Below are positions 7,100 through 42,699 of a DNA stretch of 64,000 nt, one piece after another. The translations under genes were made by a program, and so were the position numbers. Positions within the stretch are counted from its first letter, which is position 1, and each line of letters opens with the position of its first letter. Under the pieces are notes generated by a model. It did no database searches. It worked only from the letters and a program-made list of their open reading frames with translations, and had not been told where the DNA came from. Source of the DNA: Azolla caroliniana (lineage: Eukaryota > Plantae > Polypodiophyta); NCBI GenBank assembly GCA_043228905.1, contig JBHGNT010000005.1:15934001-15998000 (forward strand), in the 5' to 3' direction.

Positions 7100-9700
7100 T
7101 AGTCCCCAACGAGAGTGAGTTGTTAAGTAACTCATGTATATCCGAAAGGACCAAGAGATAAGTGGTTCTTCACATAGTCCGTTATTTGGTAGAAATAACG
7201 AAGAGATTTAGTGAGGAGGATCGTAGGGATATTATATGTAGAGTGTTATACCATCAACGTTTGAATGAATACATGGGGAGAATAAAATTTAGGGACCAAT
7301 GTGTTTCAGAAGAGATTGTAGAGTCTATGAAATCATCCCTAGACTTAGTGAAAGGTGTAGAGAGCATAGACAAACTTGCTGCAAAGAGGGCAACCCTAGA
7401 CATGGTTGTTAACGGTGTGAGAAAAAAAAAATAGTGATACTAAAGTTGCCTTTGCCTTGGGTATTCAAAGAAGGAACTTGAGGAAACATCACCGAAATAT
7501 ACACTCAAGCCAATTCAAGTGGGTGGTGTTAGGACGTAGACGACGATGTGATGCCTTGTCTCAAGAGATTATTGAGAAATTGGATTCGTTTTGGGCAAGA
7601 AATACGCGTGTCTCACCAAATAAGAAGGACATGTGTAGACAACGAATAAGTCGGGGTAAGTACCAGATTCACCCTAGACAGTTCTTGGAGATAACTGAGC
7701 TATTCCATTTTTTTATATCAATTCACATTCCATAATTTTTTGTTTTGACCAAGTGTATATTAATGTTTGCTCTATATTGGCTAATGTAGGCTAAATTGTA
7801 CATGAACTTTAAAGACCAACATCCAAGCATCACTGTTGGATTTCGCAAGTTCCAAGGTTTGAAACCATATTATGTTAGAAAATTAAATGAGAGGAATACA
7901 TGTTGTTGTGTGTACCACGTGAAAATGGACATGTTAAGGCGTGGACATGTTGTGTATTGATTTTAAGGGTATACACGGGGAATTATGTGTCTGCACTTGT
8001 GAGGTTTGTAGACCAAATGGGGAGGATAATAGGTGTAATGCACGAAACATGACTTATGCATCCGTTTCTGAGTTATGGAGCTCTTGTGTTTGTGAAAAAG
8101 AACCATCATTTGAGTGGCATCGTCATACATTCTTTAAGAACATGTAAGGTTTGCCTGCTACCATTATTTTGTAGACAGGAGCTTGATGTGGGAAACAGTC
8201 ATATTGTGAAATGGAAATATTTAGATTATGTGACTGAAAATATCGGCAAGCGACTTGTTAGTAAGCGTATCAAGGAAGTATATAATGAGACATGTGCTGC
8301 TACCCTTGTCTTAGAATTTAAGAAACAACTTGGGGAGTTCATTCCACATAACTTTCGGAGTTATTGACAAAATTCACAGTTCAAGGAATGTATTAATAAC
8401 TTACCACTGGGTGTCATGGTATTCGTTTTTTATTTTGCAAAAAACTATACATTTAAAGTCAAAATGAGGTTCAATCAATGCATTGGTACAATGATCAATG
8501 TACAATACTTGTACATATTCGCTAGGTAATTTTTAATCCATATGTTTAGTACTTATAATACAATGTCTAAGGAAGTAATACTTTTGTGCTCATTATTCAC
8601 GTGAATCAGTACTACTTGTTGTAATTCTCCTACTTGTTGGGTTCAAAGTTTACATCTTAATATGGTACTCCCTATTGCATTTGTACTAATTGTTTACACA
8701 CTAATTGTTTTAGTATTCTTGCAAGACAAGTGGGTATTCTCCTATCATGTCCCCTCCAACTTAGTTCTGTTTTCCCTTGTGCATCAATACTATTTTATGT
8801 TTTCAGCTAAATAAAAAACTCTTGATAGAAAACACAGTACTATTCAAACGGATGCATGCATACTAATTATGTTTGTAACAATGTTAAGTGTTCTTGATTG
8901 ATCACATAGTACTATCCTTTCACGTGAATCTGTGCTTATTATCTTTTAATCCATGTAGGTTGTTCTCCATAGACACATTGTACTGTGTTGTGTGTTGTAT
9001 CTGTACTAAATCAATATTTATTGAATGATGTAAAGTACTCGTTGTTTAAAAAATAGTACAGTTGGTTCTTAAGAGTTTATACTAATTATCTTTTAATCCA
9101 TGTTGAGTGCTCTCCATGGACACATTGTACTGTATTGGGTGATGTATTTGTACTAAATCAGTATTAATGGATGTAAAGTACTCGTCATCAACAACATAGT
9201 ACTGTCCAATATTGAAGAGTTTGTACTAATTATCTTTTAATACATGTAGAGTGTCCTCCATGCACATTGTACTATGCTTTGTGTTTTATCCGTACTAAAT
9301 CAATATTAATGGATGTTAAGTACTCTTGGTTGACAACATAGTACTATTTATCTTTTAATCGGTGCAGAGTGTTCTCCATGGATACATTGTACTGTGCTTT
9401 GTTTTGTATTTGTATTAAATCAATATTAATGGATGTATAGTACTCTCGATTGACAACATAGTACTTTCCATTCAAGTAGTCTATACTAATCATCTTTTAC
9501 TTGTTAGTATTCTTGTTCTTCAACATAGTATTGTGCTTCAACGTAATTTTGTACAAATCCATCAGTACTAATTATGTTTCTGTCGGAGTATTGTTACTAA
9601 TGTTTGTTGGAAACCTGGGATATAAAAGCAGGTACTTCTCCCTATTCAACAATTGTATGCAATGGAACTACTTCAGGTCTGGACATGGAAAAGGAGCACC
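7100..9700 (+). pseudogene. Sola2-like DDD transposase, N-terminal and catalytic part (frameshifted, intron-containing)
   Basis: RNTCCCVYH and Cys-rich blocks; YFAKNYTFKV/NEVQSMHWYNDQCTILVHI at 8431-8520 (degenerate DFAENY...QS.HW); WNYFRSGHGKG at 9663-9695. Confidence 0.75.
8930..9500. repeat. Tandem repeat of about 118-147 bp (about 4 units), AGTACT-rich, probably intronic
   Basis: ATCTTTTAAT-type anchor recurs near 8941, 9088, 9232, 9350 and 9492 with CACATTGTACT and AAGTACTC between. Confidence 0.8.
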
Positions 9701-12700
9701 TGGTCACTACGTGTGGATCGTGCGGCGGGGTGCTCATGTAACCATGTTTGCCATTTACATGATAACCATGTTGCCAGCTCCGTCTCCGTCGCCGTCTCGC
9801 TGTCTCGCCGTCTCCGTCGACGCCTCGCCGGCTCCATCTCCGTCGCCATCGTTCGATCTTCCCATTCATTTCTGGATTGTAGCCAGTCATGAGGGAGAGC
9901 TTCATGCCTAGTCATTTGAAGAGCTCCGTTGGTTTGTGTGCATCCAACTCTCCTCGGTCAGCCACTATCTTTCCCACACATCCATATCGGCAAACAACCT
10001 CTTCGAGTAGAAATTTGCAAACTGCTGACGTCGTCTTATTTGTCAAGGCCTGTCCTTCTACTTGATTTGTCAAGTCTTCTCTTGCTAGAGCTAAGTACTT
10101 CATTTATCCCACTCCCATTGGCATCGAGACCAAATCCACCATCCATTTGAAGTGTATGGTGAGCGGGTATGTTGGCCGTAGCTCATCACGATGACGTATA
10201 TTCGAATGTACTTGGCAAATTTCGCATGTGGACACGAAATGGAGTACATCATTGTACATGCTTGGCCACCAATACTTCTCCTTCAACTTTTCGAATGTCG
10301 CCCATGTTCCTCTATGACCTACCCAAGGATTCTCGTGGAATTCGGTCATCAGCGTCACTTGCTCTTCTTTCTTTACCACCACTCGACGTGGCATTCCTGT
10401 CCTTCTTTTTGGGTGTCGCCAAAGGAATCCTAGGAATCCTCCCCTCAAGAAGTATTGGTAAGCTTTCTTCCGGATTCATAGAGCCTCCTCCTTCGTCAAT
10501 GAAGCATCCGTCGTCATTGTTCTTAAGAATCTGCCGATTAGTAACCACTCTCCTTCGTACTCGTCCTCGTTGAAGGTGTGGAGGGTTAGCGTGCCCTTGT
10601 CTTGCGCCAATAGTCGAGCAATCTTGAAGAAGTTGAGGGTGACGTCTTCATCTTCCAAAACCATGTCACCTTCATTCTCAAATCTTGCCGTCACCAGCAT
10701 GTTAGCTATGGTGTTCTTCTTCCCTGCAATGTGGCGGATCTCTAGCCTTAAATACTTGATATAGGCAATCCACCTTAGCATAGCTAGGTCTGGGGTCGCA
10801 CATCCTGAGATCATCCCGAGGATTGGGAGACAATTTGTCTCAATTATCACTTCCGACCCGATCAGGTAATCTTTGTCCGTCTTCACTACCGACACAATAC
10901 CCCAAAGTTCCCTTTTGACTTGGGCGTATCCTCGTTGTCATTCGCTGAGAACCTTTGCTCCAAACCGAATGGCATACTGCGCATTATCTTCTCCTTCTTG
11001 GTTGATGACCCACCCGATTCCGGTTGGGCTCGTATCTACAGTCACATAAATTGGCTTCCCTTCGGTATAGTCGGCCTTTCTTAGTGCTGGAGCTTCAAGA
11101 AGTAGTTTCTTCAATCTTCGCATCGCGTTTGTGTGCTCGTCTCGCCATTCTAACTTCATTCTTTTCTTTAGCAATCCATATAAAGGCCCGACGACATGAA
11201 CGTAGTGCGGAATCCAGATATGATCAAACACGCATGCTCCAATGAACCTTCGAACCTTCGTTTGGTTTACGCATTCTTCTTTCATATCCTGGATCTCATT
11301 CACCTTGGATGGCGAAGGCTTCCGTCTATATGCTCCGCACAAGTGACCTACCACCAAGATCTCTGGTTTCCTGAATGTGAATTTTTCTCCCGAAAATGTC
11401 AAATTCGCATCTTCGAGCCTTTGGAGCACCTTCTCACAATCTTTCATATGATCCACGACGAACTTTCTACACCCTTCCTTATCTTTCGATTCATCTTTCT
11501 CCTCATCTGAACATCGTTTTATCAGAATATCATCCAAGAATGGAATCGTGATGTCCGGTATGCAATCCTTCAAGACCTTGTTCATGGCATTCACCATATG
11601 AGCCACTGAGTTTGTTGCACCTTGAGGCAAGGTACACATCCACACGAGCCCGATCGGAGTCCTTATGGTTGTAATGTCACGATTGTCGATCGCCAATTGG
11701 AATTGGTCGTATCCAAAGTAGAGATCACCAATGGAGTAGATGGACCGCCCCGCAAACGCTTCGGCAAATTCGTCCACGCTCGGACTGATTCCAGCATTCC
11801 AAATTGTCACCTTGTTCACGGGTTGAAGATCTTGGATGAATCACAATGATCCATTCTTCTTCGGCACCGTGAACCACCTATTAGAATAAGGAGCATTTGA
11901 TGGTTCCAGAATTCCCATATTCACCTTCTCCTTTAAGAGCTTGATCAGCTTCGGTAGGTGTGCTCTCGGAACCGGTATTGGTTTCAAATTCCAAGGCACA
12001 TGCGGCATTGTGAAGATCACCATCGACTCTATCGTCCTTGGATCAGCACATCCGATTTCTTGTGGGAAAAATGCGAAAGCCTTCCCATGTCTCTCGAGCA
12101 TGTCACAAAACATTCGCTCCTCTTCAAGGAGGAGGAAATCCTCCCTTCCAACTCGTAGCTTTCCTTTCGTCTCTTCGACGAAGACATGACCTATTGCTTT
12201 TGGATATCTTAAGCTTGGATTATTAGTGACTTCCTTCATCTTTTGCCAGCTATCTTCCAGTAGCGGAACCGCAACTAGCTTGATCTTCCTATCCACCATT
12301 TTATATTTTGTGTTGATGTTAGCTTCCTTCATCTAGACGCTTTGATGATATTCATTGATGATAGCGTACATGTTGATGGAGTTAACCGAAATCACGTGTT
12401 GATCGTGAAGATAGCTCAAGTCCACGACATCCTCGATTTTGATGATGGTGTCATTAAATGAGGCTTCTTCCATAAAATGAGTCACGAACTCTTCTTCTTC
12501 TATTATTTTTTCTTCTTTCAGTATCTTCTCGAAGACTTGTATCTGATGCTTGTCCTTCTTGTCGGGTAGTACTAGTTTACATGTGCCACTAGGTGTGACA
12601 CATGTTGCTTCTCCTCTCAATCCACGCGCTCTACCTTCTTGTGGGGACTTGTGATCGCTTGGACTATTTGTGTCCCATGTTTCAATAGTCCGCTCTAAAA

Positions 12701-14338
12701 ATCGGAGGATTCGCCTCCAAGACTATCTCAAATTCTTTCATGATTAGCTCGCACCGTTAGGAATTGAACAGATCTTTGATTGTCAAGACTCTTGATTCGC
12801 GCAAAAGATGCTCCATTATCGAACACCTTGGTCTCTATCCGGGATGATATGATATATGGTTGACCTAGGATGACAAGATGCGAAGCCGATTCTTGTACGA
12901 AGAAGTATTGATCCATCTCCACATCCCCAATCGTGACTTTAACATTTGGACAAGCTCCGTAGAAGTCTTCTATCGTCTTTGTTGCCGCTCGAATCTTCCA
13001 TCTGTGGTTTGTATTAATTGGCCATCTTCCTTTTTTGTAGAAGTCAGTTGACATGAGGTTGATCTCCGAGCCATGGTCGATCAAGGCTACCATGGTCTCT
13101 TTCTTCTCCCTGATATTCACTGGCGTCTCCGTTGTCGCTCGTGCCCAATGAGGTCGAGTATAGTGGTTGTCCACCATATCCTCATCGACTTCGTCTCTTG
13201 CCATCGTTATGGCATTCACTTTTGCTTTTAGTGGCTTCTCTTCTTCCTCGTCCAATTGTTGCCTCTTTCTCTTCACAAGGTCCACGATCGTGTCATGGAA
13301 CTCCTTCATAATGCCGAGTAATTCCCTCAAGGACAAAGTCATGTGGCTATCAAGTACGCGTTCCTCGAGAATCTTCTTCAGGTATGTCGTATGCTTTATG
13401 TCCGACCTTAGCTTATAGGTAGGCATAGTTCTTGTCTTCCGAGCGGGGTCATCGACACCAACCTTCACGGGCTGAACCGTTTCTTTGACTCGTTTGCTTG
13501 GCTCCCCTTTTCGGCTTGATTCTCATTCCTTCATTTGTAAAGCTCGACTCGTTTCCGCATCTTCCTTCTTTTTCGCGTTCCTTGTTTCATGTCTTTTTGA
13601 TGGGCCTTGCTCTTCTATTCTTTTTCTCTTTTCTTCGACAAACACCTCGTGGTTGTCACACATCACTTCCGCGAGTATGGTGTTGTCATCCACCAGATCC
13701 GACCATCCAGTTATACTTTGTACACTTCGTATTGAGAATCAAGCACAACCTAGTCTAGTGTGTGAACACACCCTTCAGAGTGCAAAAGTCACCACTCTTA
13801 TCTACACATTAACTATGTGTCATAGAATCATATTCTATGACACATAACTAATGCGTTTTCACATTCCCCATGACCCATGAGCTTTGGTAGTTAATGAAGA
13901 GAGAGAGTGACTATATAAAGCACTATCCTCCTACTTTGTAGGTAATGAAGAGAGAGAGTGACTATATAAAGCACTATCCTCCTACTTTGTAATAGGTTGA
14001 TTAATCTCCTTTGTAATATACATCTTCTTGAGTATTCTATTGTTGTTCATATTCATCTATCTTGTGTTTCTCTCTCACTCACACACTCTCTCTCATACAC
14101 ACACACACTCACTCACTCACACACACACACAACACATATCTCTAGTCTATTCCGCTGCACAAGAATCACCATCAATGCTTTACATGGTATCAGAGCGGTT
14201 TGGTAGCTCAATCTAGCCCATTCGCGTGTGTTGTGCTCCACGCCGACGTTCAAGAAGAACAGGCTCATCGCTATCGTAGTGCGACTACATATCTCGTATT
14301 CAAGAGAGAAGAAGAAGGAAGAAATCTACATCGAACAC

Positions 14339-20148: not shown

Positions 20149-21759
20149 CCGACCGAAGTAGAGCTTGAGGGGGCGTGTTGAGAATCAAGCTCAACCTAGT
20201 CTAGTGTGTGAACACACCCTTGAGAGTGTGAACTCAAAGATCAAAAGTCACCACTCTTATCTACACATTAACTATGTGTCATAGAATCATATTCTATGAC
20301 ACATTACTAATGTGTTTTCACATTCCCCATGACTCATGACCTTCGGTAGTTAATGAAGAGAGAGAGTGACTATATAAAGCACTCTCCTCCTACTTTGAAA
20401 TAAGTCGATTAATCTCCTTTGTAATATACATCTTCTTGAGTATTCTATTGTTGTTCAAATTCATCTATCTTGTGTTTCTCTCTTACTCACTCTCTCTCTC
20501 TCATACACACACACACACACAACACATATCTCTAGTCTATTCCACTGCACAAGAATCACCATCGATTCTTTACACTTCGATCCGCAAGCTCCACCTCGTT
20601 GGAAGTGACTTTTCCCTTCTTCTCATACTCGAGAGCGGTAGACCAAAACTTTGTTCCCACTTTCACTGCTTCAGTTTTGTCTTTCCCAACTCTTATTCCG
20701 GCCAACGCAGCATAGTGCATCGCATCCACATGAGTTGCCTCGGCATCCTCCATAGCTTTCTTCATCCCCCCTCTTTTGAAATTCACTCGCAGGGGTCTTC
20801 TAGTCTCACTCGAACAGATCATGTTGCCATCCATGTATACGATATTTTGTCGAATGGCATCTCGAAGGCTCGCGCAATCCCTTCTTATGTGGTCCATGCT
20901 ATCGCACCACATGCATCTAAAGGGTTCTTTTCCTTTGGGGCCCCGACGATTCATGTTGACTAGCATGACCATCTCGAACTTCTTCGCTAGTTCTTCGATG
21001 ATGTTTTCATCAATCTTCTTTTCTTCTGGGCTACTTTGTTTAGGTGGCTTAACTACTTTCGGTTGTCTTGTTTTCTCCGTGACAGTTGATCTCACCAAGT
21101 CAGTTTCATCAACCCACTAATGATGCTTGTCGAGCCTATTGCACGCAAGCCCATTTTCTTGGGTATCATCTTCAAGAAGAGTCCCCAATTCTCGTCTATC
21201 CTTCATGTCCACAACTTTCAAGAAGTACAAAGTCTTGTCCTCCTCAAGTAGCACTTGGTCCGTGGCGGGGAGATGAAGAAACATTTGGTTGAACTCGTTG
21301 TACACCCTAGAAGCACTCATCCTCTTATTCTTCTTTTCTATCCACTTCATCAAGGCATGTCGAGTCATCCTCGACAAATATTCCGTTGCGAACTCCGCTA
21401 ATATCGCTTTCTCGAACTCCGACCATGTTGTCTTCCCTTCTTGAAGCTCGATGACGCGCCTTTGGATGTTGTTGGCGACCACTCTCTTGAAACTTGTGAT
21501 ATGACGTGCTTCAGACACATCCCTCTAACTCATCTCCCTTTTGTATGCATCAAGGAACTTCGTAATGTTCCTTCCATCAAATTGACCCTCAAGCTCTAGG
21601 ATATGGTTGACGGTCTTCTCCACGCTCGCATCGTTGTCTCGAGATCTTATCATTTGTTCGATAATTAGCATCATCCTTTCGAACTCTCCCGCTTGATTGC
21701 TTGAGGATGACATCTCCAAGTATCAGTCAATCCTTGACTTGATCCTTCTTACCGCCTCT

Positions 21760-21777
21760 TTCATGTCGGGTTCACCA
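21760..21777 (-). promoter_or_regulatory. PBS complementary to the tRNA-Trp 3' end (element C)
   Basis: TGGTGAACCCGACATGAA, 17/18 match to plant tRNA-Trp ...TTCACGTCGGGTTCA(CCA) as recalled. Confidence 0.8.
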
Positions 21778-22187
21778 CTTAATTATGTTGTGAAGATCCG
21801 TGACTACGTGCGGATCGTGAGGCGGAACCGCCGGGGTCTTGGATTAGAAGGATTCGAAGTTTGCACTAACTTTAGCGAGAAAGTATTTAAGATAGATTGA
21901 AAGAGAGAGATATTGAGATAAGATAGAACGCTTGACTTTAGATTGAGAGACAAGATTAATACATCACAAAAATGGGATAAAGAATTATCTTCCACTTAAT
22001 TTCTTGATTAATACATAGCTGGTTTTTCCTGTCCATGCACTCTTTTATAGATGCCCCAATGCACATGATGCCTGTGAGGGTGCAAGACATGCATGAGAAG
22101 CATGGTTAAACATGATAACCATGTCACTCATTCAATCTCTCATGTATGAGAATTTATATATAAAATGATCAAAGTAAACTTTTTGAA

Positions 22188-22266
22188 GATATGACTTGGC
22201 TTAGTGGTAAGCCTATTGTCTTTCAACTTAAAGGTGCAAGGTTCAAGCCTTGCCCACATCCCTTTT
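22188..22266 (+). promoter_or_regulatory. tRNA-like Pol III cassette inside LTR C (antisense to the element)
   Basis: A box TGGCTTAGTGG 22197, B box GGTTCAAGCC 22240, D-stem GGCTT/AAGCC, T-stem GCAAG/CTTGC, TTTT at 22263-22266. Confidence 0.7.
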
Positions 22267-22789
22267 AAAACACAAAATACTACTAGGCTTTTGGTCTTGT
22301 ATTTACACTGAAAATCTTCAAAACACCATGCACCGCGATCAACCAACCGATCTGCCTGTCTAGTGCCATCTGTCCCGACTGGTTCAATCCAATCCCGGTT
22401 CGATCCTGTGTGTCGCCATCCGGTCCCGGTGTCGGTCGTCGTCGCACTGTCTCCGTCCGGTTCTGGTCGGCCAAAATATTTACAAGTAGTTAGGCCACAC
22501 CCATTCATCCAGTTAGTTTAGCTCAAGTCACCTTGAACATTCTATGATCCACTCATAGACACAAAGTTATAGATTTTGGCCCTGCTTATATACTCCAGGA
22601 TCCTTATTTATCTTGTCTATGTGAGATATCTTGTAGTTTTGTTTTTTCTCTTCTTCTTCGCAAATTTCATAACCACATAACTTGCCACTTAGTTGTCAGT
22701 TTCTTATGTGGTAAAGTGTATTTGAAATCTCTTGAAGACCTCCATCGTTTTGTACCAAGATATTAAACTAGTATCTTCACTATTATTGT

Positions 22790-23537
22790 TTTATTTTGTG
22801 TGTGAAGAACCACACTCGATTTTGTACATTCCATCCAATTTTCACACCGTTGGTGAAAATCTTTACGGCAGCGTTGATGAGGTCGATAGGACTAAATCAT
22901 ATGGTTGTAAAACCGTGAAAGGCACGCGCAACACCCATTGTGTATTAGGGTTTAGCCGGAAGGACACAACACAATTGTTACTCTGTACTTTATCATGCTT
23001 TTGTTCCATGTGTATAGATGAAGCTTGGGATGAATGCATCAACCTATCAATCATGGAGCCCTGGAAGCTACAGAAGCTTGAGCCTGAACAAAAGATGATA
23101 TTGAAGAGGATGCACATTCAAACAATATTGTATACTACAACCAACGTGAAGACTTGGCAGTTTTATTGGAAGATGGAGATAATTTTGCAATGCTGAAATC
23201 TCCTCAGAATGAAGATTTAGAAGACTACTACATTGTGGTGTGCAAGCAAGGGAAGACATTATTGAAAGAAGTGGTGAGGGATGGCTGGGGCAACATGTTC
23301 AACGTTAGTGAGTCTGTAGTGAATGGAACCTATTATGCAAAGTTGCCGCAGTGCAAGAACACATATGCATTACTAAAAGATGCACCCACCGTAATAATCT
23401 ACATTCCTGCCATTATTACGATTGAGTTCAATATGACTCAAGAAAAGCACAAGGTTAAGGGATACAACACTGTCTGCAAGGTCCCCCAAGAGGTTCATGA
23501 GCACATATTGGGGGAGATCTCTCTGTTTAATGCTTGA
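22790..23537 (+). pseudogene. Sola2-like transposase C-terminal part
   Basis: KTVKGTRNTHCV...LSCFCSMC...C motif, then the frameshifted continuation 23154-23537. Confidence 0.65.
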
Positions 23538-24175: not shown

Positions 24176-25194
24176 GTGTGGAAGATGTGCTTCCAGAGTC
24201 CGCCTCTATGCAAATGATAGTCCCAAAATCTGACTCTTCACTTGTGCTCCATATAGTTCCCGATTCGTTTGATTGCAGTTGGGAATTTGACTACTCTTGT
24301 AAACCTAAATAATGGCATCCCAGAGAATATCAGTATCAACTCACATACTCAAAAGTTTGCAAACATACTAGTAACTATAAACATAGGAGGTTAATAACCA
24401 CATTTTTACCTATTGTTACATTGTCATACTATACAATCATAGACAACTCATTGCAAGTGGTAGGGTCAGTCACCTTCTCCACAACATCTAAGCGTTCATC
24501 AGATTTAGGGATGGTGCCAATCGCAGGTTGGGGGTCATTGTCAATAGAACCACTCATAATAGTATCTATATAATGCACCAAAAGCACCACTATAATAGGG
24601 TTGTTATGATCTAAATAATTGTTTTCTTAGAGGCCTTATTGACGTTGTCGTGCCTTTCAGCTCCGGATCGTTGTGTGAGTCGGGTGGGAACCACTGAGGT
24701 TTTGGACTAGGAGAAAGAAGAATACAATATAAGGCTAGTTATGAATAGGTAGAAAGAGAAGTAAGAAATAAAAACTTATGAATCCCACGTGTTTAGTTTA
24801 TTTAATCAATGTTTAGATTGTCAGAAAGAGAATTTTTATGATAAACTCGTGAATCCCACGAATATATTAGATTGATCAGTCCTTGTAAAAAAATCAACAA
24901 CATCATACATTTTTCTCTCCTCCTTATATAAGGATGGAAGAGGCTAAGCATAGCTTCATGCTTTTTCTAAAGTGTTCATGCACACTAAATGTGCATGAGT
25001 TGCTTTTTACACTGCTTTTATTTCCTAAATATAGTGCTCATGCTCGCTAGATGTACACAAGTAATTTTTTATTGGTGTACATTTTTCTTATAAATAAAGT
25101 ATTCACGCATTCTAAAAATGCATGACTTACCTTTTAATAAGCGTAGGCGTAAATAAAGGTCTTATATGTATTAAATCTATATTTAGAACACTTA

Positions 25195-25282
25195 CGATAA
25201 GTTAGTACAATGGTAAGGTTGGGGTTTTTCTACGTTGAGGTATAGGGTTTGAATCCTGCCCTATGCATGTAACAATCTTTTC
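25195..25282 (+). promoter_or_regulatory. tRNA-like A/B-box cassette in D 3' LTR (second copy at 34975-35065)
   Basis: TAGTACAATGG 25203 and GGTTTGAATCC 25246; copy at 34982 and 35025. Confidence 0.6.
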
Positions 25283-26244
25283 TACTATTTATAAATTTGT
25301 TTCTTCATCCGGTGAGAGTCTCTCACCGGCCTTCTTTATCCGGCTTTGGCCGGTTCTGCTTGATCCGGTTCTTACCGGGTCCTCCTTGCTGGTTCCTCCT
25401 TCATCCGGTTCTCACCGGTTCTCCTGATCGGGTCCTCCTTATCGGGTCCTCCTTCATCCGGTTCTCACCGGTTCTCCTTACCGGTTCCTCCTTGTCCCAT
25501 TCGGAGGAACCAAAATGCAATTTTCACATAGTGTGCGAATTACAGTACGACACTCGCCCCCTCCAAACCCACACATCCTCTGGTATATGCCGATGTTCCC
25601 GATGCTCATTATTCGCCTTCATCCGTAGCACTCTCCGATTCTCCCCTTATGTCGACTACGAGTTGAAGTCCACTTTCTTGTTGTCGGCATGTTGCTTCCC
25701 CTATGTCTTCCGGTCTTCCTTCTAGTTGTCGTATCCGGACCGCTAGTAGTTCTTCCCGGCTCATCTCTTCCGTCCACGGTAGCATTGTCCATCTCGCGAT
25801 CGCGGTTTCCGTCGGCATTACCGGTGCTTGTCTGGTCATAAGTTCTGTCGGCATATAACCGGTTACGGAGGTATGCGTCGTCCGATCCTCCCATAGTGCA
25901 TTCGGGAGCATCTGCGGCCAATCCTTCACCCTTCCGTCGCATGCTTTGGCAAGTGCTTTGACGATCGGAGTATGTCCTCATTCGATTTTCCTGTTGGCCT
26001 CCGGATTGTATGTCGTTGTTAGTGTTAACTGAACTCCATGTTTGGTGAAGAATTCCCTAACTTTATCAGAGTCGAGTTCTCCTTGATCCGCAATCACTTG
26101 TCCTACGCACCCGTACTTGCAAAACACCTCCTCCAAAAGAAATTGGCATACCGCTGTCGTAGTGTATTTCGTACACTACGTGAAAAAGTAAAAATAATAT
26201 AACCGATTTAATTACATATAAATAAATAAAATAAGAATATCAAA

Positions 26245-26330
26245 ATATTTATCCCGTGCATAGGGCAAGATTCGAACCTTGTACCTCCATGTAACCAAAC
26301 CTCAACTTTACCATTATGCTACCTTATCTT
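26245..26330 (-). promoter_or_regulatory. tRNA-like A/B-box cassette in D' 5' LTR (second copy at 29005-29090)
   Basis: Minus strand TAGCATAATGG (26321-26311) and GGTTCGAATCT (26278-26268); copy TAGCATAATGG / GGTTCAAATCC at 29081 / 29038. Confidence 0.65.
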
Positions 26331-26910
26331 TAGTGTTCTATAAATAGATTTAATAACTATAAGTGCTTTATTTGCACCTACCTTTATTAAAAGGTAAATC
26401 GTGCATTTTTAGAGTGCGTGAATATTTTATAGAAAAACGCAAGCAACTAAAAAGTGACTCATGCACATCTAGCGTGCATGAGCACTATATTTAGCAAATA
26501 AAAGCAAGGATTAGAAAAGCATCACATGCACATTTAGTGTGCATGAACATATTAGAAAAAAAGCATGTAGCTATGCTTAGTCTCTCCCATCACTACATAA
26601 GGATGGGGAGCACAATGTAATAGGTGTGTGAAATATTTGGGAAATTGGATATATTTCCTAAAACACCAATTAATAAAATATACTCGTGGGATTCACGAAG
26701 TTTAAGATAATCTATCTCTTTCAATCTAAATTCATATTCTTACATAAATATTGATTAATGTAATACTTGTGGGATTCACAAGATTAGCCTCAAATTCTTC
26801 CTCCTCCTAGTCCAAAACCCCGGTGGTTCCCACCCGACTCACGCAACGATCCGGAGCCGAAAGGCACGACACAAGTTGGTGAACCCGACGTGAAGGCGGG
26901 TGGCAAGGAG

Positions 26911-28962
26911 ATGGAGAATCAACAAGAGGCAATGAGCATAACGATGATGATGATGTTCGAGTGGATGCTACAAGAACAACGAGCGATGTCGGAGATGAAG
27001 GCGGCAGTAGAGCGGCTTCTGCGACGAAACGGGGAATTCAACGGTAAGGGTGTGTCACGCTACCTACGTGAATATAAGGCGGAGATGATGCAATATCGGA
27101 TACCGGAAGGATTGCAAGTGATATCCTTTAGTCGGGTGGCCTCGGACGAACTACAAGAGAGAATCCACAAGATACAACAACAAAACTCGACATGGGAGTC
27201 CTTTGAAGAAGCTTTACGGGAGGCATATGACTATGAGAGATGGACGGGACGAGATCGACGAGAATTCGACGAATGGGTGGCGTCGGAGAAGACTCACCGA
27301 AGTGCAACGCAAGCGTTCCTAGAGTTCGAGCATCGTTTTGCTCGACTCTCGGAGCGGGAACGAAGATTGGTGGGAGGAGATAAAGTCTTAATGTTCGTAA
27401 GATCGATCGATCGGAAAGAAAGGATGGACATTGGGATCGAACTCGAAGATGATGACGGTGCGAACGGCCTTACCGAGGATTGGGCTAAAGTCGAAAGGGT
27501 ATGCCGAAGACATGATGAAAGGAAGCTGAGAATCTCGTCAACAACGACATGGCCCATGAAGGATGGTCGATTGAGGAAAAACGATGAAGCCAATATGAAG
27601 GCCGAAATACAACATGATGGTACCACGGGAGAAAGAGTGGAACAAGACACCCACTCGTCTTGTGAAAGAACGATGGCGAAGGATAAGGCCGATAATTCAA
27701 GTGTAGAAGAAGATTTCGGGATACAAGTGCCCGAGACATCGGGTCAAAAAGGGGTAAGCATAATAGATGTTTGCATAATTGATGCAGATAAAGAGTGTGA
27801 AGCGGATGTGATTAAGGAGGTAGCCACAAAAGACGAAATCGAATCGGAGGTGGCTATGGACGAATCAATGGCGGATTGCCATATCGAGACTTCCCCACCA
27901 CTGATTCTAGAGACTCCGGCGGTTGCGTTCGAAAGGCAACGTGAGACCGAAGAGACGGAAGGTGGCGGAGAGAAAACAAAGGTCGAAGTCGATGCATACG
28001 ACGGAGAGATAGCCGAGAATATGGCTATGGGTGAAACAATGGAGGATGATAATACCGAGGATTCCTACCCACTAATTCTAGGGACTTCGGCAGTTGTGTC
28101 CGAGAACCAACGTGAGACCGGAGAGACGGGAGGTGGCAGCAAGAAAGGTAAAGTCGGAAGCCGGTTTGGATGGAAGGTGATCCGGACGGGATTCCGATCC
28201 GAAAGAAAGCCGAACCGGGTAAAAGAGGATTCGACCAAAAGTCGACCCGAAAGAAAGCCGAACCGAAAGGAAGAGAATTCGGCTGAAAGACGACACAAAC
28301 GAAAGCCGAACCGGGCGAATGAGGATTCGGCCGAAAGACGACCCGAAAGAAAGCCGACCCGAAAAGGGGTCGACTCGGTCAAAACCGATCGACTGAGTCT
28401 GACTTGGCCGAACGCGAATATGGATGGAAGCCGACCTAGCCGAAAGCCGATCGGACGAGACCGATCCGGAAAGAAGCTAATCCGACTCAATCGGAGGTTG
28501 GACCGGTCAAGGCTGGTGAAAACGAGGAAAAGAAAGCCAACTGAAACCGAAACCGATAGATCGAAACCGGGCCGGAAGGAGACCGACTCAATCGAAACCG
28601 AACAACCGATTCCGATTCGGCCGAATACGAATCCGATCGGAAGCCGATCAAACCGAAAGTCAATCGGACGAGAGCGATCCGGAAAAAATTCAAGGTTGAT
28701 GAAGACAAGAAAGAGCCCAGTAAAAGACACTACCACGAATGAACAAAGAATATGGTGGATCGGATGGCGACAATGGTTCGGGTGGAAAGAATGGGTCTAC
28801 TCAAAATGGAGAGACAAAGTTGACATAGCGGGACAAACGGAGGATGAAGGGGAGACAACGAGCATCGGCAACTTCGGCACATACCGGAGGATGTGCGGGT
28901 TTGGAGGGGGCGAGTGTCGTAGTGTATTTCGTACACTACGTGAAAAAGTAAAAATAATATAA
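26911..28962 (+). CDS. Intact 683-aa gag-derived protein: gag N-terminal domain, acidic region, Arg/Lys-rich repeats; stop lies inside the 3' LTR
   Basis: MFEWMLQEQ...FNGKGVSRYLREYK matches D gag (MFEWMLQEQ...FNGKDVSRYLRDYK); no stops; no protease, RT or integrase motifs. Confidence 0.85.
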   Translation: MENQQEAMSITMMMMFEWMLQEQRAMSEMKAAVERLLRRNGEFNGKGVSRYLREYKAEMMQYRIPEGLQVISFSRVASDELQERIHKIQQQNSTWESFEEALREAYDYERWTGRDRREFDEWVASEKTHRSATQAFLEFEHRFARLSERERRLVGGDKVLMFVRSIDRKERMDIGIELEDDDGANGLTEDWAKVERVCRRHDERKLRISSTTTWPMKDGRLRKNDEANMKAEIQHDGTTGERVEQDTHSSCERTMAKDKADNSSVEEDFGIQVPETSGQKGVSIIDVCIIDADKECEADVIKEVATKDEIESEVAMDESMADCHIETSPPLILETPAVAFERQRETEETEGGGEKTKVEVDAYDGEIAENMAMGETMEDDNTEDSYPLILGTSAVVSENQRETGETGGGSKKGKVGSRFGWKVIRTGFRSERKPNRVKEDSTKSRPERKPNRKEENSAERRHKRKPNRANEDSAERRPERKPTRKGVDSVKTDRLSLTWPNANMDGSRPSRKPIGRDRSGKKLIRLNRRLDRSRLVKTRKRKPTETETDRSKPGRKETDSIETEQPIPIRPNTNPIGSRSNRKSIGRERSGKNSRLMKTRKSPVKDTTTNEQRIWWIGWRQWFGWKEWVYSKWRDKVDIAGQTEDEGETTSIGNFGTYRRMCGFGGGECRSVFRTLREKVKII

Positions 28963-31900
28963 ACGATTTAATTACATATAAATAAATAAAATAAGAATAT
29001 CAAAATATTTATCACGTGCATAGGGCAGGATTTGAACCCTGTACCTCCACGTAGCCAAACCTCAACTTTACCATTATGCTACCTTATCTTTAGTGTTCTA
29101 CAAGTAGATTTAATAACTATAAGTGCTTTATTTGCGCCTACCTTTATTAAAAGGTAAACCATGCATTTTTAAAGTGCGTGAATATTTTATAGAAAAACGC
29201 AAGCAACTAAAAAGTGACTCATGCACATCTAGCGTGCATGAGCACTATATTTAGCAAATAAAAGCAAGGATTAGAAAAGCATCACATGCACATTTAGTGT
29301 GCATGAACATATTAGAAAAAAAAGCATGTAGCTATGCTTAATCTCTCCCATCACTACATAAGGATGGGGAGCACAATGTAATTGTGTGTGAAATATTTGG
29401 GAAATTGGATATATTTCCTAAAACACCAATTAATAAAATATACTCGTGGGATTCACGAAGTTTAAGATAATCTATCTCTTTCAATCTAAATTCATATTCT
29501 TACATAAATATTGATTAATGTAATACTTGTGGGATTCACAAGGTTTGATCTCTTTTCTCAATCTACTCTAATCTATTCTAAATTATTTCAATTTATTACT
29601 ACGATTTAGATAAACTAAAACAATTATACTTGTGGGATTCACAAGTTTCTATATCTCTTTCTTATAATCTATTCATATTCATAACTAGATTAGCCTCAAA
29701 TTCTTCCTCCTCCTAGTCCAAAACCTCGGTGGTTCCCACCTGACTCACGCAACGATCCGGAGCCGAAAGGCACGACACCGCAGAACATGTTTTCCTTCGT
29801 AGCGCCTGACCTTCTACTTGATTTATGAGATCTTCCCGAGCTAACACCAAGTACTTCTTTTGTCCAATCCCGGTTGGCATGGCGACAATGTTGACCATCC
29901 ATTTGAAGTTGATTCTCGGTGAGAATGTCGGATGTAACTCATCTCGGTGTCGAACTCCGGAGTAGATTTGATACTTCTCGTAGCTTTCTGTGAACTTTGC
30001 TATATCTTTGTACATATTCTTCCACCAATATTTTTGTTTGATTTTCACAAAAGTTGCCCATGTCCCTCGATGTCCAACCCAATCGGATTCGTGAAACTCG
30101 GACATTATCCGGTTTCGTTGCTCTTTCGTCCCGACTACCCGAAGTGGCATGCCATCCGGTGTTTTCGGCTCCCTCCATATTAATCCATTTTTCAAGAAGA
30201 ACTTTTGGACTTGCCTCTTCTTCCTTCAGATCTCGGCTCTCTTCTCTTTGTTGTCCGGTGATTCCTCAATCTCTTGTAGCACCTTACCGATCATCAAGCT
30301 TTCTCCCTCGTATTCTTCTTATCAGAATTCTCGGATTACGTTTACTTGGCATATGTGCTCCAAAGCAAAGTAGTCTTCGGAAACTTCTTCATTATCAGAT
30401 TCGGCTATGTCGTCTCCGAACCGAGCCCTTGATAGCATATCCGCTACCACATTGTCTTTTTCGGAGATGTGTCGTACGTCCGGGTTATGCGACTTAACAT
30501 ATGCAATCCATCTTAGCATAACCACATCCGGTATCGTGCAACACCGCATCATCCCGAGTATCGGAAGACAATGCATTTTGATTTCTACCTCAGCTCCGAT
30601 CAAATAATCTCGATCCGATTTGATTGCCGACACGACTCCCCATAATTCTCTTTTGACTTGTGCATATCCGCATTACCTTTCGTTGAGAATCTTTGCCCTG
30701 AATCGGATCAGATATCGCAACCCATCCGAGTCAGCTTGATTGATGACCCATCCGATCCCGGTTGGACTTGTATCAACCGTTACTATGATTGGTCACTCAT
30801 AGCTCGGATTCTTAAGTGCTTCAACCCTCCGTAGTGTTTTCTTGAGCTTCTTCATGGCTTTGGTGTGTTCCAGTTTCCATTCAAACTTCTTCCCCTTCCG
30901 CAATAAGTGATAGAGTGGGTCCGCAATATGTGCATAGTGCGGAATCCATATGTGAAAAAATGCACAAGCTCCAAGAAACCTTCGGATTTCGGATTGTGAC
31001 TCGCATACTTCTTTCATAGCTTGAATCTCATCGATCTTGGTTGGTGACGGTCTTCGGCCGTAGGGCCCACATAGATTTCCGACTACCAATATTTCTTCTT
31101 GTCCGAATGCCGATTTCTCTCCGGAAAGTGTTAGGTGCACATCTTCTAACTTTATAGCACTTTCTCGCAATCGCGAATATGGTCGACTACAAATTGTCGG
31201 CATCCGTGATCATCCATAGTCTCATCTTTTTCTTCCACTGCGCATCCTTTCATTGGAATGTCATCTAGGAACGACATCGTTATCTCCGGAATGCAATCTC
31301 GAAGCACCTTGTTCATTGCATTCATCATATGTGCGACCGAGTTCGTTGCGCCTTGTGGTAGTGTCCACATACGAACTAATCCTATCGGGGTTTGCATGAT
31401 AGTGATGTCTCGGTTCTCCAAGGCTAGTTGGAATTGGTCATACCCAGAGTATAGGTCTCCGATGGAGTATATCGCGCGTCCGACAAATGCTTCCGCAAAT
31501 TCGTCCACTATTAGACTGACTCCGGAGTTTCGGATCGTGACCTTGTTCACCAGTTGCAAGTCTTGAATAAACCGGAGTGACCCATTCTTCTTCGGAACCG
31601 TAAACCATCGATTTGAGTACGGAGCGTTTGATGACTCTAGAATCGCCATCGCCACCTTCTCCTTGAGCAAGTCGATGATTTTGGGAATATGTGCCCGCGG
31701 CACCGGAATCGGCTTTAGGTTCCATGACACATGGGCAATCGTGAAGATCACCATCGACTCCACTATCTTCGGATCAACGCACCCTATCTCCTTCGATGTG
31801 AATGCAAATGCTTTCCCATGTTGTTCCAACATCCCACAGAATCGTTCTTCTTCATTTTGTAAAAGTAAACCACCTCCACCGATCCGAAGTTTCTTCTGTC

Positions 31901-34900
31901 TCCCGAGACTTCGTTCCTCTTTTGTTCACTATCGGCAAGTAGCGGTCCTGCGGCCGGTTTCACTTTCTTCTCCACGGTCATGTATTTTGTACTTACCATT
32001 GCTTCTTCTTTGCGGAGCGCATCCAGCCCCATTTTCGCAATGATCTCGTACATCTCGACTGATTCCACCGGAACTACCCAGTCTCCCTGGCTATTTTCTT
32101 TTGCAAGCTCTTCAAGCCGTTGTAGCGTGCTCCCATAGAACACTTCTTCGACTACTCCCACGATTTCTTTGTCTTCTTGCATTATTGATGCCAACCGTAA
32201 CTTATCTTCACTTTTCGGTATTCTTTCTTCATTCCTCCGGTTACGGCTGTGTACGTAGATGCCCCATTAGGACCGATTCATACTAGTTTTGCTCCGAGAG
32301 TTTTCTTCCTGTGTGGAGTATCAGGGCTTCTTGGGCTATCACTTCCCCACTTCGCAACAGTCCGCTCTAAAAATCCATCTTTTTTTGGGACAAGAGCTCC
32401 CCCTTGTTCCTTTCATGATTTGCAGGGACAGTTAGGAATTGGACGGATTTCCCTCCGCTTTGACTCCGAATTCTTGCGAAAGCCGCACCACTATCGAGCA
32501 CCTTCATCTCCATCCGTGATGCCGTGATAAAGGGTTGCCCGAGGATCACGGAGTGTGAGACCTCATCTTGCACAAAGAAATTTTGGTCTATCTCCACATC
32601 TCTGATCTTCACCGTCACATCCGGACAAGCCGCAAATAGGTCTTTTGTTGCTTTAGTGGTTGCCCGGATCTTCCATCCATGATTAGTATTAATAGGCCAC
32701 TTCCCCTTCTGGTAGAACTCCTTGGACATCAAGTTGATCTCCGATCCGTGATCAATCAATGCTAGCATAGGCTCTTTGATGTTGCCGATTCGGACCGGAG
32801 TCTCCATAGTTGCACGTGTCCAATGTGGCCTTGTGTAGTGGGAGTTCGGAATTTCGTCCTCCAATTCGGTGTAATTCATTAAAACGGTATTTGCATTCAC
32901 CCTTGCAGCATTTTCCTCCATACTTTGTCTTTTTCTCTTCAGGAGATCCACAAGAAGATCGTGGAACTCCTTCTTCGCTATTCCGAGTAATTCCCGAAGC
33001 GAAAATTCTACCCAACTATTGAGGATTCTCTCCTCGAACACCTTTTTCAAGTCCGGTTGTTGTTCTATGTCCGAGGCGAGCTTGAATGCCAGAATCTTCT
33101 TTTCTTTTCCCTTCCCTCCGGAGTTCCAGCTTTCCGGTGTCTTCGATGGTCCGCCCGCATCATCCGTGCGCCGTCATTTCTCGTCTATATACACTTCATG
33201 CAATTGACATTAGGCGTACACACTATTCTTATCGATGGGGCACTCCCATCCCGTAGCTTCACGAATGCCTTCCGCGGTGCTTCGGACCTCATTGGAGTCG
33301 GTTTTCTCAGGGTTTTCTAGCACATCTGGCCAAAAAGACGCCTTTGCTCCCGATGACTCACCGACACTTATTCCCGCGGTTGTTGCATAATTACCTTTCG
33401 CCGCTATTTCCTCCTCTAGGACCTTCTTCATGCCACCTTTCCGGATGTTTGGTGGGAGTGGCTTCCAAGAGTCCATCGAATGAATCTGATTTCCCTCGTA
33501 GTAGATAAGATCTTGTCGTAACGCCTCCTTGTGCTCGTCGCAATCCCTCCGATCATGTTTGGTATTATCACACCATATACACCGACGGTCCATATACTTG
33601 GAACTTGTGGGACAGTCATCCGACTTCTTCACCATCGCGATTTTTAGATTCTCCATATCCTTCAGTAGCTGCTCCACCATGGTTCCGTCGATTCCCTTCT
33701 CGGTCGTAGTCTCACGAGCCCACAGTTGATGGTCTTCCAGTCTGGATCTTGGTTTCGGAATCGGTTCCGAAACCCTCTTTTCTTCATTAGCAAGCTCTTG
33801 CCCCCTCTTCGTGTATCGCGCGACGATATTCCGCAGGCTTTCCCATGTTTCGGTGAGGCCACTCTTAATGGTCGTATCCTCCAAAAGCACTCCAAGATCT
33901 TTCCGGTCCCGGATGTCCACGACTCTTAGGAACATGATCACTTTGTTCGGTGCGAGGATAACTTGATCAATCTCTCGCAGACAACTTCCCAAACCGACTT
34001 TCGAATGACAAAAACACATCCAGGACCTTCATCCCCTTATCTGGTGTTTCCACCCAATCTTCGAATCCCCTCCTCATTGCCTTGGAGGAGTCCTCAATGG
34101 CGAACGTGGTCTTTAGCGCCTCTTCAAATGCCTCCCATGTCGGATTTTGCTGCCGTATCCCATGGATACTCCCTTGAAGCCCGTCAGTCGCCACCCGATT
34201 GAAGGATGTCACTTGCAGTCCTTCCGAAATCCCGCACTGTAGCATTTCCACCTTGTAATCTCGCAAATACCGCGACACATCTTTCCCATTGAATTGCCTG
34301 TTCCGTTGTACGACCCGCTCTACTACCGCCACATTGTTCTTGTAGCATCCACTCGAACATCGCCCTCATGTTGTTAGCCTCTGGTTAAATTTCCATCTCC
34401 TTGCCACCCGGTTTCACGTCGGGTGTGTCGTGCCTTTCAGCTCCGGATCGTTGCGTGAGTCGGGTGGGAACCATTGAGGTTTTGGACTAGGAGAAAGAAG
34501 AATACAATATAAGGCTAGTTATGAATAGGTAGAAAGAGAAGTAAGAAATAAAAACTTATGAATCCCATGTGTTTAGTGTATTTAACCAATGTCTAGATTG
34601 TAAGAAAGAGAATTTTTATAGTAAAATCGTGAATACCACGAATATATTAGATTGATCAATCCTTGTAAAAAAATCAACGACATCATACATCTTTCTCTCC
34701 TCATATAAGGATGGAAGAGGCTAAGCATAGCTTCATGCTTTTTCTAAAGTATTCATGCACACTAAATGTGCATGAGTTGCTTTTCACACTATGTTTTTAT
34801 TTCCTAAATATAGTGCTCATGCTCGCTAGATGAGCACGAGTAATTTTTTATTGGTGTACATTTTTCTTATAAATAAAGTATTCACACATTCTAAAAATGC

Positions 34901-36009
34901 ATGATTTACCTTTTAATAAGGGTAGGCGTAAATAAAGCTCTTATATATATTAAATCTATATTTAGAACACTTAGGATAAGTTAGTACAATGGTAAGGTTG
35001 GGGTTTGTCTACGTTGAGGTACAGGGTTTGAATCTTGCCCTATGCATGTAACAATCTACTATTTATAAATTTATTTCTTCATTCTGTGAGAGACTCTCAC
35101 CGGCCTTGTTTATCCGGCTCTTGCCGGTTTTGCTTGATCGGTTCTTACCGGGTCTCCTTACCGGGTCCTCCTTCATCCGGTTCTCCTTAGCGGCTCCTCC
35201 TTACTGTTTCCTCCTTCATCCGGTTCTCATCGGTTCTCCTTACCAGGTCCTCCTTACCGGTTCCTCCTTACCGGTTCCTCCTTGTCCCATCCGGAGAAAC
35301 CAAAATGCAATTTTCACGTAGTGTGCGAATTACACTACGACAACGAGTACCCCGGAGTATGATAAATTTTTCTTCATGATCAGACTTTGGACTCATATCT
35401 CCCTCTCCTAAGATCATTTCATCTTCAGATTGTAACAAAAGTACATGATATTAGTCAATGCATTAGGTTGACAACTGTCCAGATAGGTGAGAACATATAT
35501 GACTCACCATTGCATTCAACTTTGCCTTTCTTGCCCTTTCCATACAACTTCCTTGTAGCATTCCTTTTCTTAATGGGCTCTTTTTTAAAGACATCAGGCA
35601 TTCAAGATACACACAAATGAGAAATAAGATTTGAAACCACAATTTGTGTTACCTAGATTGTTGTGATGTTGACCAAAGCTTGGGGAATTTGTTTGCAGAA
35701 GCATATGTTCGACTGCTCCAATGGCCCTTCTCATACATGCATCTTCATCATAAAACTCATAGGTTACTGGTAATGAAGGTCCTTGAACCTTGGAATGTGC
35801 AACAGATACTAAGGGTTTAGGCACAAGAGTTGGTTGTTCCATTACCTTCCCTGGCGTGGAGTTGCTTGACATGACAACATTCATTGCAAGAAATAAAAAA
35901 ACCTTCAACATTAGTACCTTGCTATAAAATATACAATGTAGGTCACATCTTTAGTCCGTTTGAGCGTAATTGATGCACCCACCACCAAGAGCTGCAATAT
36001 TAAATCATC

Positions 36010-42583: not shown

Positions 42584-42679
<96 letters not shown>

Positions 42680-42680: not shown

Positions 42681-42699
42681 CACTAATCTTTAACCTATG

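What the first reader, a model, noticed from the sequence alone, without database searches (positions are those of the whole stretch)
22188..22266. Antisense tRNA-like Pol III cassette built into the LTRs of tRNA-Trp-primed gypsy families
Seen in all five full LTRs of C, D and D' (A boxes at 22197+, 25203+, 34982+, 26321-, 29081-). Each has an A box (TRGYNNARTGG) and a B box (GGTT(C/T)RA...) exactly 43 nt apart start to start, always antisense to the element and in U3. The C and D LTRs are otherwise poorly alignable and the sequence between the boxes differs. The C copy has D- and T-stems, an upstream TATA-rich tract and a TTTT terminator 13 nt after the B box. Established: this is tRNA/SINE promoter geometry; Cassandra TRIMs carry a 5S Pol III module in their LTRs; TFIIIC-bound B boxes can act as chromatin barriers. 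Inference: a conserved LTR-borne Pol III/TFIIIC module acting as an insulator, an antisense small-RNA source or a tRNA decoy. I do not know of this being described for autonomous plant gypsy elements.
Basis: partly seen in the sequence, partly recalled or inferred. Interest (0 to 1): 0.8.

Follow-up and report, generated by a model that had tools for sequence, protein, structure and literature searches.

The report
Backward tRNA promoter inside retrotransposon LTRs
Three plant jumping genes in this window carry, in their end repeats and pointing backwards, a decayed tRNA-like stretch whose two promoter boxes stay fixed across copies of one family, so it likely serves as a built-in binding site for the tRNA-gene transcription machinery, a feature so far described only in miniature non-coding elements and, in the copies I could read, in the forward direction.

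Summary
Five A-box/B-box pairs, 43 nt apart, lie antisense in the LTRs of elements C, D and D' (0.04 expected by chance). The elements fit the Phygy gypsy clade (tRNA-Trp PBS, 4-bp NCGN TSD). The module is a decayed tRNA or SINE head. It is not a working tRNA and not the primer.

Conservation is mixed. Among C-family contigs from three organisms, 0 of 22 box positions vary against 8 of 32 between the boxes (p=0.016), and subfamilies keep the boxes while flanks differ. Against that: the boxes are no better kept than the downstream flank (p=0.55); D versus D' shows no excess; a D-like relative has a ruined B box; two C-like relatives lack the module; the TATA tract is private to this copy; terminators vary.

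Best reading: a captured Pol III promoter, likely kept in some families as a cis-acting TFIIIC site (0.45). A neutral passenger is close behind (0.35). There are no expression or binding data. The nearest known kind is Helenus/Cassandra TRIMs. This scan has noted Helenus-type cases and one backward tRNA relic in other genomes, but not this module. New variant of a known kind.

The parts
22190..22266 (+). tRNA-like module in the 5' LTR of element C: A box 22197-22207, B box 22240-22250, D-arm and T-arm hairpins, TTTT at 22263-22266
   Evidence: family variation
21786..22971 (-). 5' LTR of element C (1186 bp, TG...CA), TATA-like motif near 22049 on the element strand
   Evidence: the 3' boundary at 21786 is confirmed by loose ends of 60-70 contigs per run
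21760..21777 (-). tRNA-Trp-type primer-binding site of C
   Evidence: the Trp label is recalled and agrees with the Phygy row
20575..21759 (-). gag region of C, first part (broken by stops)
9700..13731 (-). continuation of C beyond a nested copia block: DUF4100, RT, RNase H, integrase-side similarity to D', and a short LTR remnant near 9700-9900 that lacks the module
   Evidence: contiguity with L072
34426..35342 (-). 5' LTR of element D' (917 bp)
34975..35045 (+). tRNA-like module in the D' 5' LTR: A box 34982, B box 35025
24646..25552 (-). 3' LTR of D', preceded by a polypurine tract; LTR pair 94.1% identical; 4-bp TSD ACGT/ACGA
25196..25266 (+). tRNA-like module in the D' 3' LTR: A box 25203, B box 25246; contains an internal T5
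29782..34425 (-). main part of the gag-pol region of D' (DUF4100, RT; broken by stops and frameshifts)
26155..26871 (+). 5' LTR of element D, nested in D'; 4-bp TSD CCGC; PBS at 26877-26894
26258..26328 (-). tRNA-like module in the D 5' LTR: A box 26321, B box 26278
26872..28914 (+). internal region of D: one 681-codon stop-free gag-like frame, no pol
28915..29777 (+). 3' LTR of D (863 bp); LTR pair 97.6% identical over aligned columns
29017..29088 (-). tRNA-like module in the D 3' LTR: A box 29081, B box 29038; weak Rfam tRNA match over the whole model (14.2 bits, E 1.7)

Best explanation
The LTRs of these Phygy-type gypsy elements carry a decayed tRNA-like stretch, pointing away from the element, that was likely captured from a tRNA or SINE head and is likely kept in some families as a binding site for TFIIIC, the factor that starts Pol III transcription. 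Shown: the boxes, their tRNA spacing, the antisense position inside LTRs, the loss of the cloverleaf, and fixed boxes around a drifting spacer in family C. Inferred: capture into U3 and copying to both LTRs by normal reverse transcription. Inferred and untested: TFIIIC (with or without Pol III) binds about 140 nt (C) or 270 nt (D) upstream of the element's TATA-like motif and would keep the LTR promoter open or shield it from neighbouring heterochromatin, with the DNA site mattering more than any RNA made. The module is optional for the clade: relatives have lost it, let it decay, or never had it.
For: Five A+B pairs at 43 nt against 0.04 by chance. Rfam tRNA alignments put the boxes at the model's D- and T-loop positions. 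In C-family contigs of run X1, 0 of 22 box positions are polymorphic at 7% or more against 8 of 32 interbox positions (Fisher p=0.016). No box position is listed as variable in any of the 4 runs (3 organisms, 3 studies). A second LTR subfamily shares the stretch from the upstream flank to the core of the B box and then diverges (loose ends at 22246 in 11, 25, 9 and 15 contigs), and others diverge just upstream of the A box (3, 8 and 9 contigs). In the third organism the depth over the module is 3-5 times that of the downstream flank. C and D' share only about 30% gag identity and have unalignable U3 flanks, yet keep both boxes and the spacing. The cloverleaf is lost (1-2 of 5 anticodon-stem pairs against 5 of 5 in 27 of 27 real tRNAs) and terminators vary, which fits a DNA site better than an RNA product. 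Kojima 2024 reports the same pattern in Helenus: boxes kept, tRNA not functional.
Against: Within C the boxes are no better kept than the 50 nt downstream (3 of 50 polymorphic, p=0.55). Laying contigs needs 80% likeness, so copies with damaged boxes may be missed, and depth falls off near the stretch ends. D versus D': module 83% identical, 29% of LTR windows are as good or better, boxes 17 of 22 against spacer 28 of 32. D-like relative L052: module 57%, B box 5 of 11, against flanks 33 of 45 and 21 of 29. C-like relatives L072 (intact LTR of about 710 bp) and L094 (LTR of about 110 bp) have no module. Both D' copies have a T in place of the usually invariant C of the B box. The upstream TATA tract is private to the window copy. 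Other parts of the C LTR attract 10-25 times more depth than the module. No RNA, ChIP or chromatin data were available. The barrier role of TFIIIC is recalled from yeast and mammalian work, not from a call.
Confidence: 0.45

Rival explanations
1. Neutral passenger. A tRNA-derived SINE head or tRNA pseudogene fell into U3 of an ancestral LTR (or twice, or moved between families by template switching) and is simply copied with the LTR while it decays. It does nothing.
For: No excess conservation in D versus D'; the module is less conserved than its flanks in L052; absent in L072 and L094; non-consensus B box in both D' LTRs and an internal T5 in one; boxes equal to the downstream flank in C. Kojima notes that 'not a few LTRs' in Repbase contain tRNA-like sequence. 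D has a T-rich tail-like run after the module.
Against: Invariant boxes around a polymorphic spacer in C across three organisms. Subfamilies keep the boxes while the flanks differ. Both boxes and exact spacing persist in families with about 30% gag identity and unalignable U3. No flanking TSD above chance.
Confidence: 0.35
2. RNA-level tRNA docking site. In the element's genomic RNA the module reads as the complement of a tRNA in the 3' U3, so it would pair with a packaged tRNA and help minus-strand transfer, dimer formation or packaging.
For: The antisense orientation in U3 is what this needs. A precedent exists in HIV-1, where a tRNA-Lys3-gene-like sequence in U3-R promotes minus-strand transfer (seen only as a reference title and one review sentence). 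The bipartite PBS of Ty3 is recalled. D and T loops are the parts that tRNAs share.
Against: The module does not match the primer's 3' end as read from the window's own PBS (5-7 of 15), so it is not a copy of the primer gene. The anticodon-arm spacer drifts freely, whereas pairing with one tRNA should hold it. The host tRNA set was not available to test.
Confidence: 0.12
3. Source of a short antisense Pol III RNA (about 75-85 nt) that acts as a tRNA decoy or guides silencing or anti-silencing of the family.
For: The C copy folds into D and T arms (z -2.69) and has a T4 at +74; D copies have a T4 at +84. A five-pair T-arm hairpin in a shifted register is present in all five copies.
Against: D and D' copies fold no better than shuffles (z -0.81 to +0.19). 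D' 3' has a T5 inside the module and D' 5' has no T4 until +154. No anticodon stem forms. The paired change in the T arm between the two D LTRs is a G-to-A plus C-to-T at CHG sites, which methylation decay explains.
Confidence: 0.08

Closest known systems
Helenus (TRIMp3; Kojima 2024, PMC10886601; read parts 1-4 of 6, passages, and supplement hits)
   Same: [quoted passage not shown]
   Different: Helenus elements are non-coding TRIMs of 311-1263 bp. In the three LTR sequences seen in the supplement hit (read by eye) the tRNA part reads in the sense direction, fitting Pol III transcription of the element. The only plant case is in Selaginella (120-bp LTR, 5-bp TSD). Here the module is antisense, in LTRs of 0.7-1.2 kb of gag- or gag-pol-coding elements with a Trp PBS and 4-bp TSD, so it cannot transcribe the element. 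Kojima argues that autonomous partners must use Pol II and followed up only TRIMs under 1000 bp.
Cassandra and Ajax TRIMs (5S-derived Pol III promoter in the LTR; Kojima 2024; Maiwald et al., bioRxiv 10.1101/2023.07.14.548913, passages)
   Same: A Pol III internal promoter module carried in LTRs, with relatives that lack it.
   Different: 5S-type (box A, IE, box C) promoter that drives the element's own RNA; non-coding; Met PBS in Cassandra.
Phygy clade of non-chromovirus Ty3/gypsy (Neumann et al. 2019, PMC6317226; passages and one supplement row)
   Same: tRNA-Trp PBS (81% of 186 elements), 4-bp NCGN TSD (100%), coding region filling the internal part.
   Different: No LTR-borne tRNA-like module is mentioned in the passages read. 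The clade was defined from Physcomitrella patens; membership here rests on PBS and TSD, not on a tree with reference Phygy proteins.
tRNA-Lys3-gene-like sequence in HIV-1 U3-R (Piekna-Przybylska et al. 2010; seen only as a reference title and one review sentence)
   Same: A tRNA-gene-like sequence in U3 of an autonomous retroelement.
   Different: There it matches the primer tRNA and acts at the RNA level. Here it does not match the primer's 3' end.
tRNA-derived SINEs (SINE2)
   Same: A and B boxes at tRNA spacing with a decayed cloverleaf.
   Different: No own TSD above chance, no body, and no free copies seen; it moves with the LTR.

Membership tests
Helenus (TRIMp3) | tRNA-derived sequence with boxes A and B inside the LTRs | tested here: met
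Helenus (TRIMp3) | Non-coding TRIM, about 0.3-1.3 kb in all | tested here: not met
   C and D' carry gag-pol, D a 681-codon gag-like frame; LTRs are 717-1186 bp
Helenus (TRIMp3) | Promoter oriented to transcribe the element (sense) | tested here: not met
   All five modules are antisense; Helenus sense orientation read by eye from three LTRs
Helenus (TRIMp3) | Pol III transcription from the module | not testable with these tools
   No stranded RNA or ChIP data were available
Phygy (non-chromovirus Ty3/gypsy) | tRNA-Trp PBS | tested here: met
   PBS in C and D, partly deleted in D'; the identity of the tRNA is recalled and agrees
Phygy (non-chromovirus Ty3/gypsy) | 4-bp NCGN target-site duplication | tested here: met
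   D: CCGC/CCGC; D': ACGT/ACGA, one mismatch; C cannot be tested (one intact LTR)
Phygy (non-chromovirus Ty3/gypsy) | RT/RH/INT fall in the Phygy clade on a tree with reference elements | not tested
   No named Phygy proteins were held; named RT relatives are from Adiantum and Riccia at 46-65%
Functional tRNA gene | Cloverleaf with paired acceptor, anticodon and T stems; score over the Rfam threshold | tested here: not met
   ARAGORN 0; Rfam 11.6 and 14.2 bits against threshold 29; 1-2 of 5 anticodon-stem pairs
Free tRNA-derived SINE | Own TSD and tail | tested here: inconclusive
   Longest flanking direct repeats 6-8 nt, not above shuffles; T-rich run after the D module
Free tRNA-derived SINE | Copies outside LTRs | tested here: inconclusive
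   None in the window; C-type contigs that diverge after the B box still carry the upstream LTR flank; the D type and the whole genome were not searched
Self-priming or primer-gene copy | Module 3' end complementary to the element's PBS | tested here: not met
   5-7 of 15 matches

The most novel reading that the evidence does not exclude
A lineage of protein-coding plant gypsy elements has domesticated a tRNA-type Pol III promoter that points outward from its own Pol II promoter, so that every LTR and solo LTR carries a TFIIIC-bound barrier against silencing. The module is swapped, kept or dropped between families as a U3 cassette, and hundreds of such sites would pattern chromatin in the host genome.
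Probability: 0.28. Interest if true: 0.75.

Novelty: new variant of a known kind. Interest (0 to 1): 0.47.

Why it matters
Small-RNA promoters in LTRs are described for miniature non-coding elements, where they drive the element's own RNA. An antisense module in long, coding elements cannot do that, so if it is under selection it needs another purpose. A TFIIIC barrier built into an LTR would be a route by which plant retrotransposons resist silencing, and a high-copy source of insulator-like sites. It would be testable in bryophytes by ChIP and LTR reporters. If it is only a passenger, it still warns that tRNA-like hits in such genomes can come from LTRs.

Tried and rejected
No whole genome is held for this window, so a genome-wide LTR alignment and a free-SINE search could not be made.

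Detection as a tRNA: ARAGORN found 0 genes and Rfam found 0 matches at E<=1 on the whole window; only short-stretch scans gave weak tRNA hits.

Searches for relatives: the PBS pattern gave 0 loci in viral contigs and 16 in genome contigs, none Phygy-like. In metagenome contigs (4 of 64 parts scanned) 3 of 120 loci were Phygy-like and 117 were dropped as unrelated. RT against viral contigs gave none. A module pattern there gave 1 locus with no tRNA by ARAGORN, not followed further.

Expression: no RNA holder listed among the runs; this says nothing on expression.

Common origin of the C and D modules: a first null with 4 tRNAs was too small (5 pairs). The larger null (27 prokaryotic tRNAs, 323 pairs) leaves the spacer match of 14-15 of 26 unremarkable (p 0.29-0.38), so a single origin is not shown by identity. 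No plant tRNA set was available, so the source tRNA is unidentified.

Rejected: a working tRNA gene, a self-primer, a conserved TATA or terminator cassette, and compensatory change in the T arm as proof of selection.

Literature: ten searches found no report of an antisense tRNA-like module in LTRs of coding plant gypsy elements. The library lacks most subscription papers and Repbase, and a P. patens TE paper had 0 hits for 'tRNA' or 'SINE'.

Full report
Observation. A scan for the A box TRGYNNARTGG found 7 sites in the window. A relaxed scan returns the same five only. ARAGORN finds no tRNA and Rfam finds nothing on the whole window. On 151-base stretches the tRNA model gives 11.6 bits for C and 14.2 bits for D against a threshold of 29, with the boxes at the D- and T-loop positions. 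So the feature is real and tRNA-shaped, but heavily decayed.

The elements. C lies on the minus strand with a 1186-bp LTR at 21786-22971 and a PBS at 21777. Its gag runs to 20575, is interrupted by a copia block flanked by a 5-bp duplication, and resumes at 13731 with DUF4100, RT and RNase H. Its 3' end is a short LTR remnant without the module. D' is a decayed gag-pol element with LTRs at 34426-35342 and 24646-25552 (94.1% identical). D is a gag-only element nested in D', with LTRs at 26155-26871 and 28915-29777 (97.6% identical). The target-site duplications are CCGC/CCGC and ACGT/ACGA. The Phygy clade has 4-bp NCGN duplications in 100% and a tRNA-Trp PBS in 81% of 186 elements (Neumann 2019, supplement row). 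Named RT relatives come from Adiantum and Riccia; closer ones are unnamed. A seed-free plant, perhaps a moss, is the likely host; this is inference. TATA-like motifs lie about 140 nt (C) and 270 nt (D) downstream on the element strand, so U3 is a reasonable but unmapped placement.

What the module is not. It is not a working tRNA: 1-2 of 5 anticodon-stem pairs form, against 5 of 5 in 27 of 27 real tRNAs. It is not the primer or a copy of the primer gene: it matches the 3' end implied by the window's PBS at only 5-7 of 15 places. It has no flanking duplication above chance. Only the C copy folds better than shuffles. Terminators vary: T4 at +74 in C, +84 in D, a T5 inside one D' copy, none until +154 in the other. 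The TATA tract before the C copy is private, since about 95% of laid depth has other letters at 22157 and 22160 (40 of 183 difference rows were shown).

Conservation in family C. Contigs of four runs (three organisms, three studies; 114-255 contigs laid per run) were laid on 22160-22310 (all 21 difference rows shown). In run X1, 0 of 22 box positions are polymorphic, against 8 of 32 between the boxes (p=0.016) and 3 of 50 downstream (p=0.55); two further sites where nearly all depth differs from the window copy were left out as private. All eight lie in 22212-22230. No box position appears in the table for any run. Many contigs stop aligning at 22246, inside the tail of the B box (11, 25, 9 and 15 contigs), and continue with another sequence; the six listed pieces that stop there begin at 22160-22163, so they carry the upstream LTR flank and are an LTR subfamily, not a free SINE. 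Other contigs diverge just before the A box (3, 8 and 9). This is the pattern expected if the boxes are selected. Two cautions apply: the 80% threshold favours copies with intact boxes, and contig depth is not copy number. In the full-LTR laying, the U5 end and 22114-22159 draw 10-25 times the depth of the module, so the module is not the most widely shared part of the LTR.

Conservation in D and beyond. D versus D': the module is 83% identical, 29% of LTR windows do as well, and boxes (17 of 22) are no better than spacer (28 of 32). A metagenome scan gave 120 loci, of which 3 are Phygy-like. L052, a D-like element, has the module at the homologous place but decayed: 57% identity, B box 5 of 11, below its flanks (33 of 45 and 21 of 29). 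L072 and L094, both closer to C than D' is in gag (48-62% and up to 78% against about 30%), have no module. These are single copies, and L052 may be a dead one. The module is therefore optional in the clade.

One origin or two. C and D are colinear without gaps, with 17-19 of 32 interbox matches against 8 in shuffles. But unrelated tRNAs match each other about as well (14-15 of 26 against a mean of 12.7). One shared oddity favours a common source: all five copies pair 5 of 5 in a T stem shifted by one base and only 3 of 5 in the normal register, a pattern seen in 0 of 27 real tRNAs. The flanks of C and D are unrelated (14-15 of 45 upstream). One old capture with losses, or transfer of a U3 piece between families, both fit; I cannot separate them.

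Mechanism. Because the module points away from the element, Pol III cannot use it to make the element's RNA, as proposed for Helenus and shown for Cassandra. What is kept in C is the pair of boxes and their spacing, not the RNA fold or the terminator. I therefore favour a DNA site for TFIIIC that would hold the nearby LTR promoter open or block the spread of heterochromatin (0.45). The barrier role of TFIIIC is recalled, and binding here is untested. A neutral passenger is nearly as likely (0.35). Pairing of the element RNA with a packaged tRNA (0.12) has a precedent in HIV-1 U3-R, which I saw only as a reference title and one review sentence. A functional antisense RNA is least likely (0.08).

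Comparison with what is known. Kojima 2024 (PMC10886601; parts 1-4 of 6, passages and supplement hits) describes Helenus: non-coding TRIMs with tRNA-derived boxes in their LTRs, with one plant case in Selaginella. He notes that 'not a few' Repbase LTRs contain tRNA-like sequence but followed only TRIMs. The present case works like Helenus in carrying tRNA-derived boxes in LTRs, but fails membership on coding capacity, size and orientation. Passages of the Cassandra preprint and a 2026 sugar-beet paper mention only non-autonomous carriers. Ten literature searches found no report for coding plant gypsy elements; subscription papers and Repbase were not searchable, and supplements of the bioRxiv preprint could not be seen. 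Earlier notes of this scan hold nothing on this module by place or sequence and list several Helenus-type cases plus one backward tRNA relic in a fungal element; these are unchecked notes.

Verdict. A real, non-random feature and a new variant of a known kind. Selection on the boxes is supported in one family and contradicted in another lineage, and function is untested. Interest 0.47.

Noticed in passing
window 13732-20574: A block of nested copia elements and LTRs sits inside element C, flanked by a 5-bp duplication (CTTCG). The copia LTRs end in CT/CA microsatellites, and related LTRs occur near 5100-5500 and 42300-42700.
   Followed up: partly
window 26872-28914: Element D has no pol but keeps one stop-free 681-codon gag-like frame over its whole internal region, with a repetitive charged tail and no Pfam hit. 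It resembles a gag-only non-autonomous element.
   Followed up: partly
L094 1-582: A Phygy-derived miniature element with an LTR of about 110 bp, a Trp-type PBS, a short gag fragment and a tandem arrangement; no module.
   Followed up: partly
L072 (minus strand, about 230-940): A C-like element whose LTR is preceded by a polypurine tract and followed by a PBS, that is a tandem sharing one LTR; its U3 is unrelated to that of C.
   Followed up: partly
window 22114-22159 and 21786-21930: These parts of the C LTR draw 10-25 times more contig depth than the module, so they are shared by many more LTR families; 22114-22159 may be a conserved promoter element.
   Followed up: no
window 35963-36772, 23702-24169, 8933-9470, 61497-61896: Tandem-like repeat arrays with units of about 52, 156, 145 and 86 nt.
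   Followed up: no
window 35120-35290 and 25320-25500: The 5' part of the D' LTR holds a GC-rich array of short repeats that D lacks; C has a different GC-rich stretch at 22340-22470.
   Followed up: no
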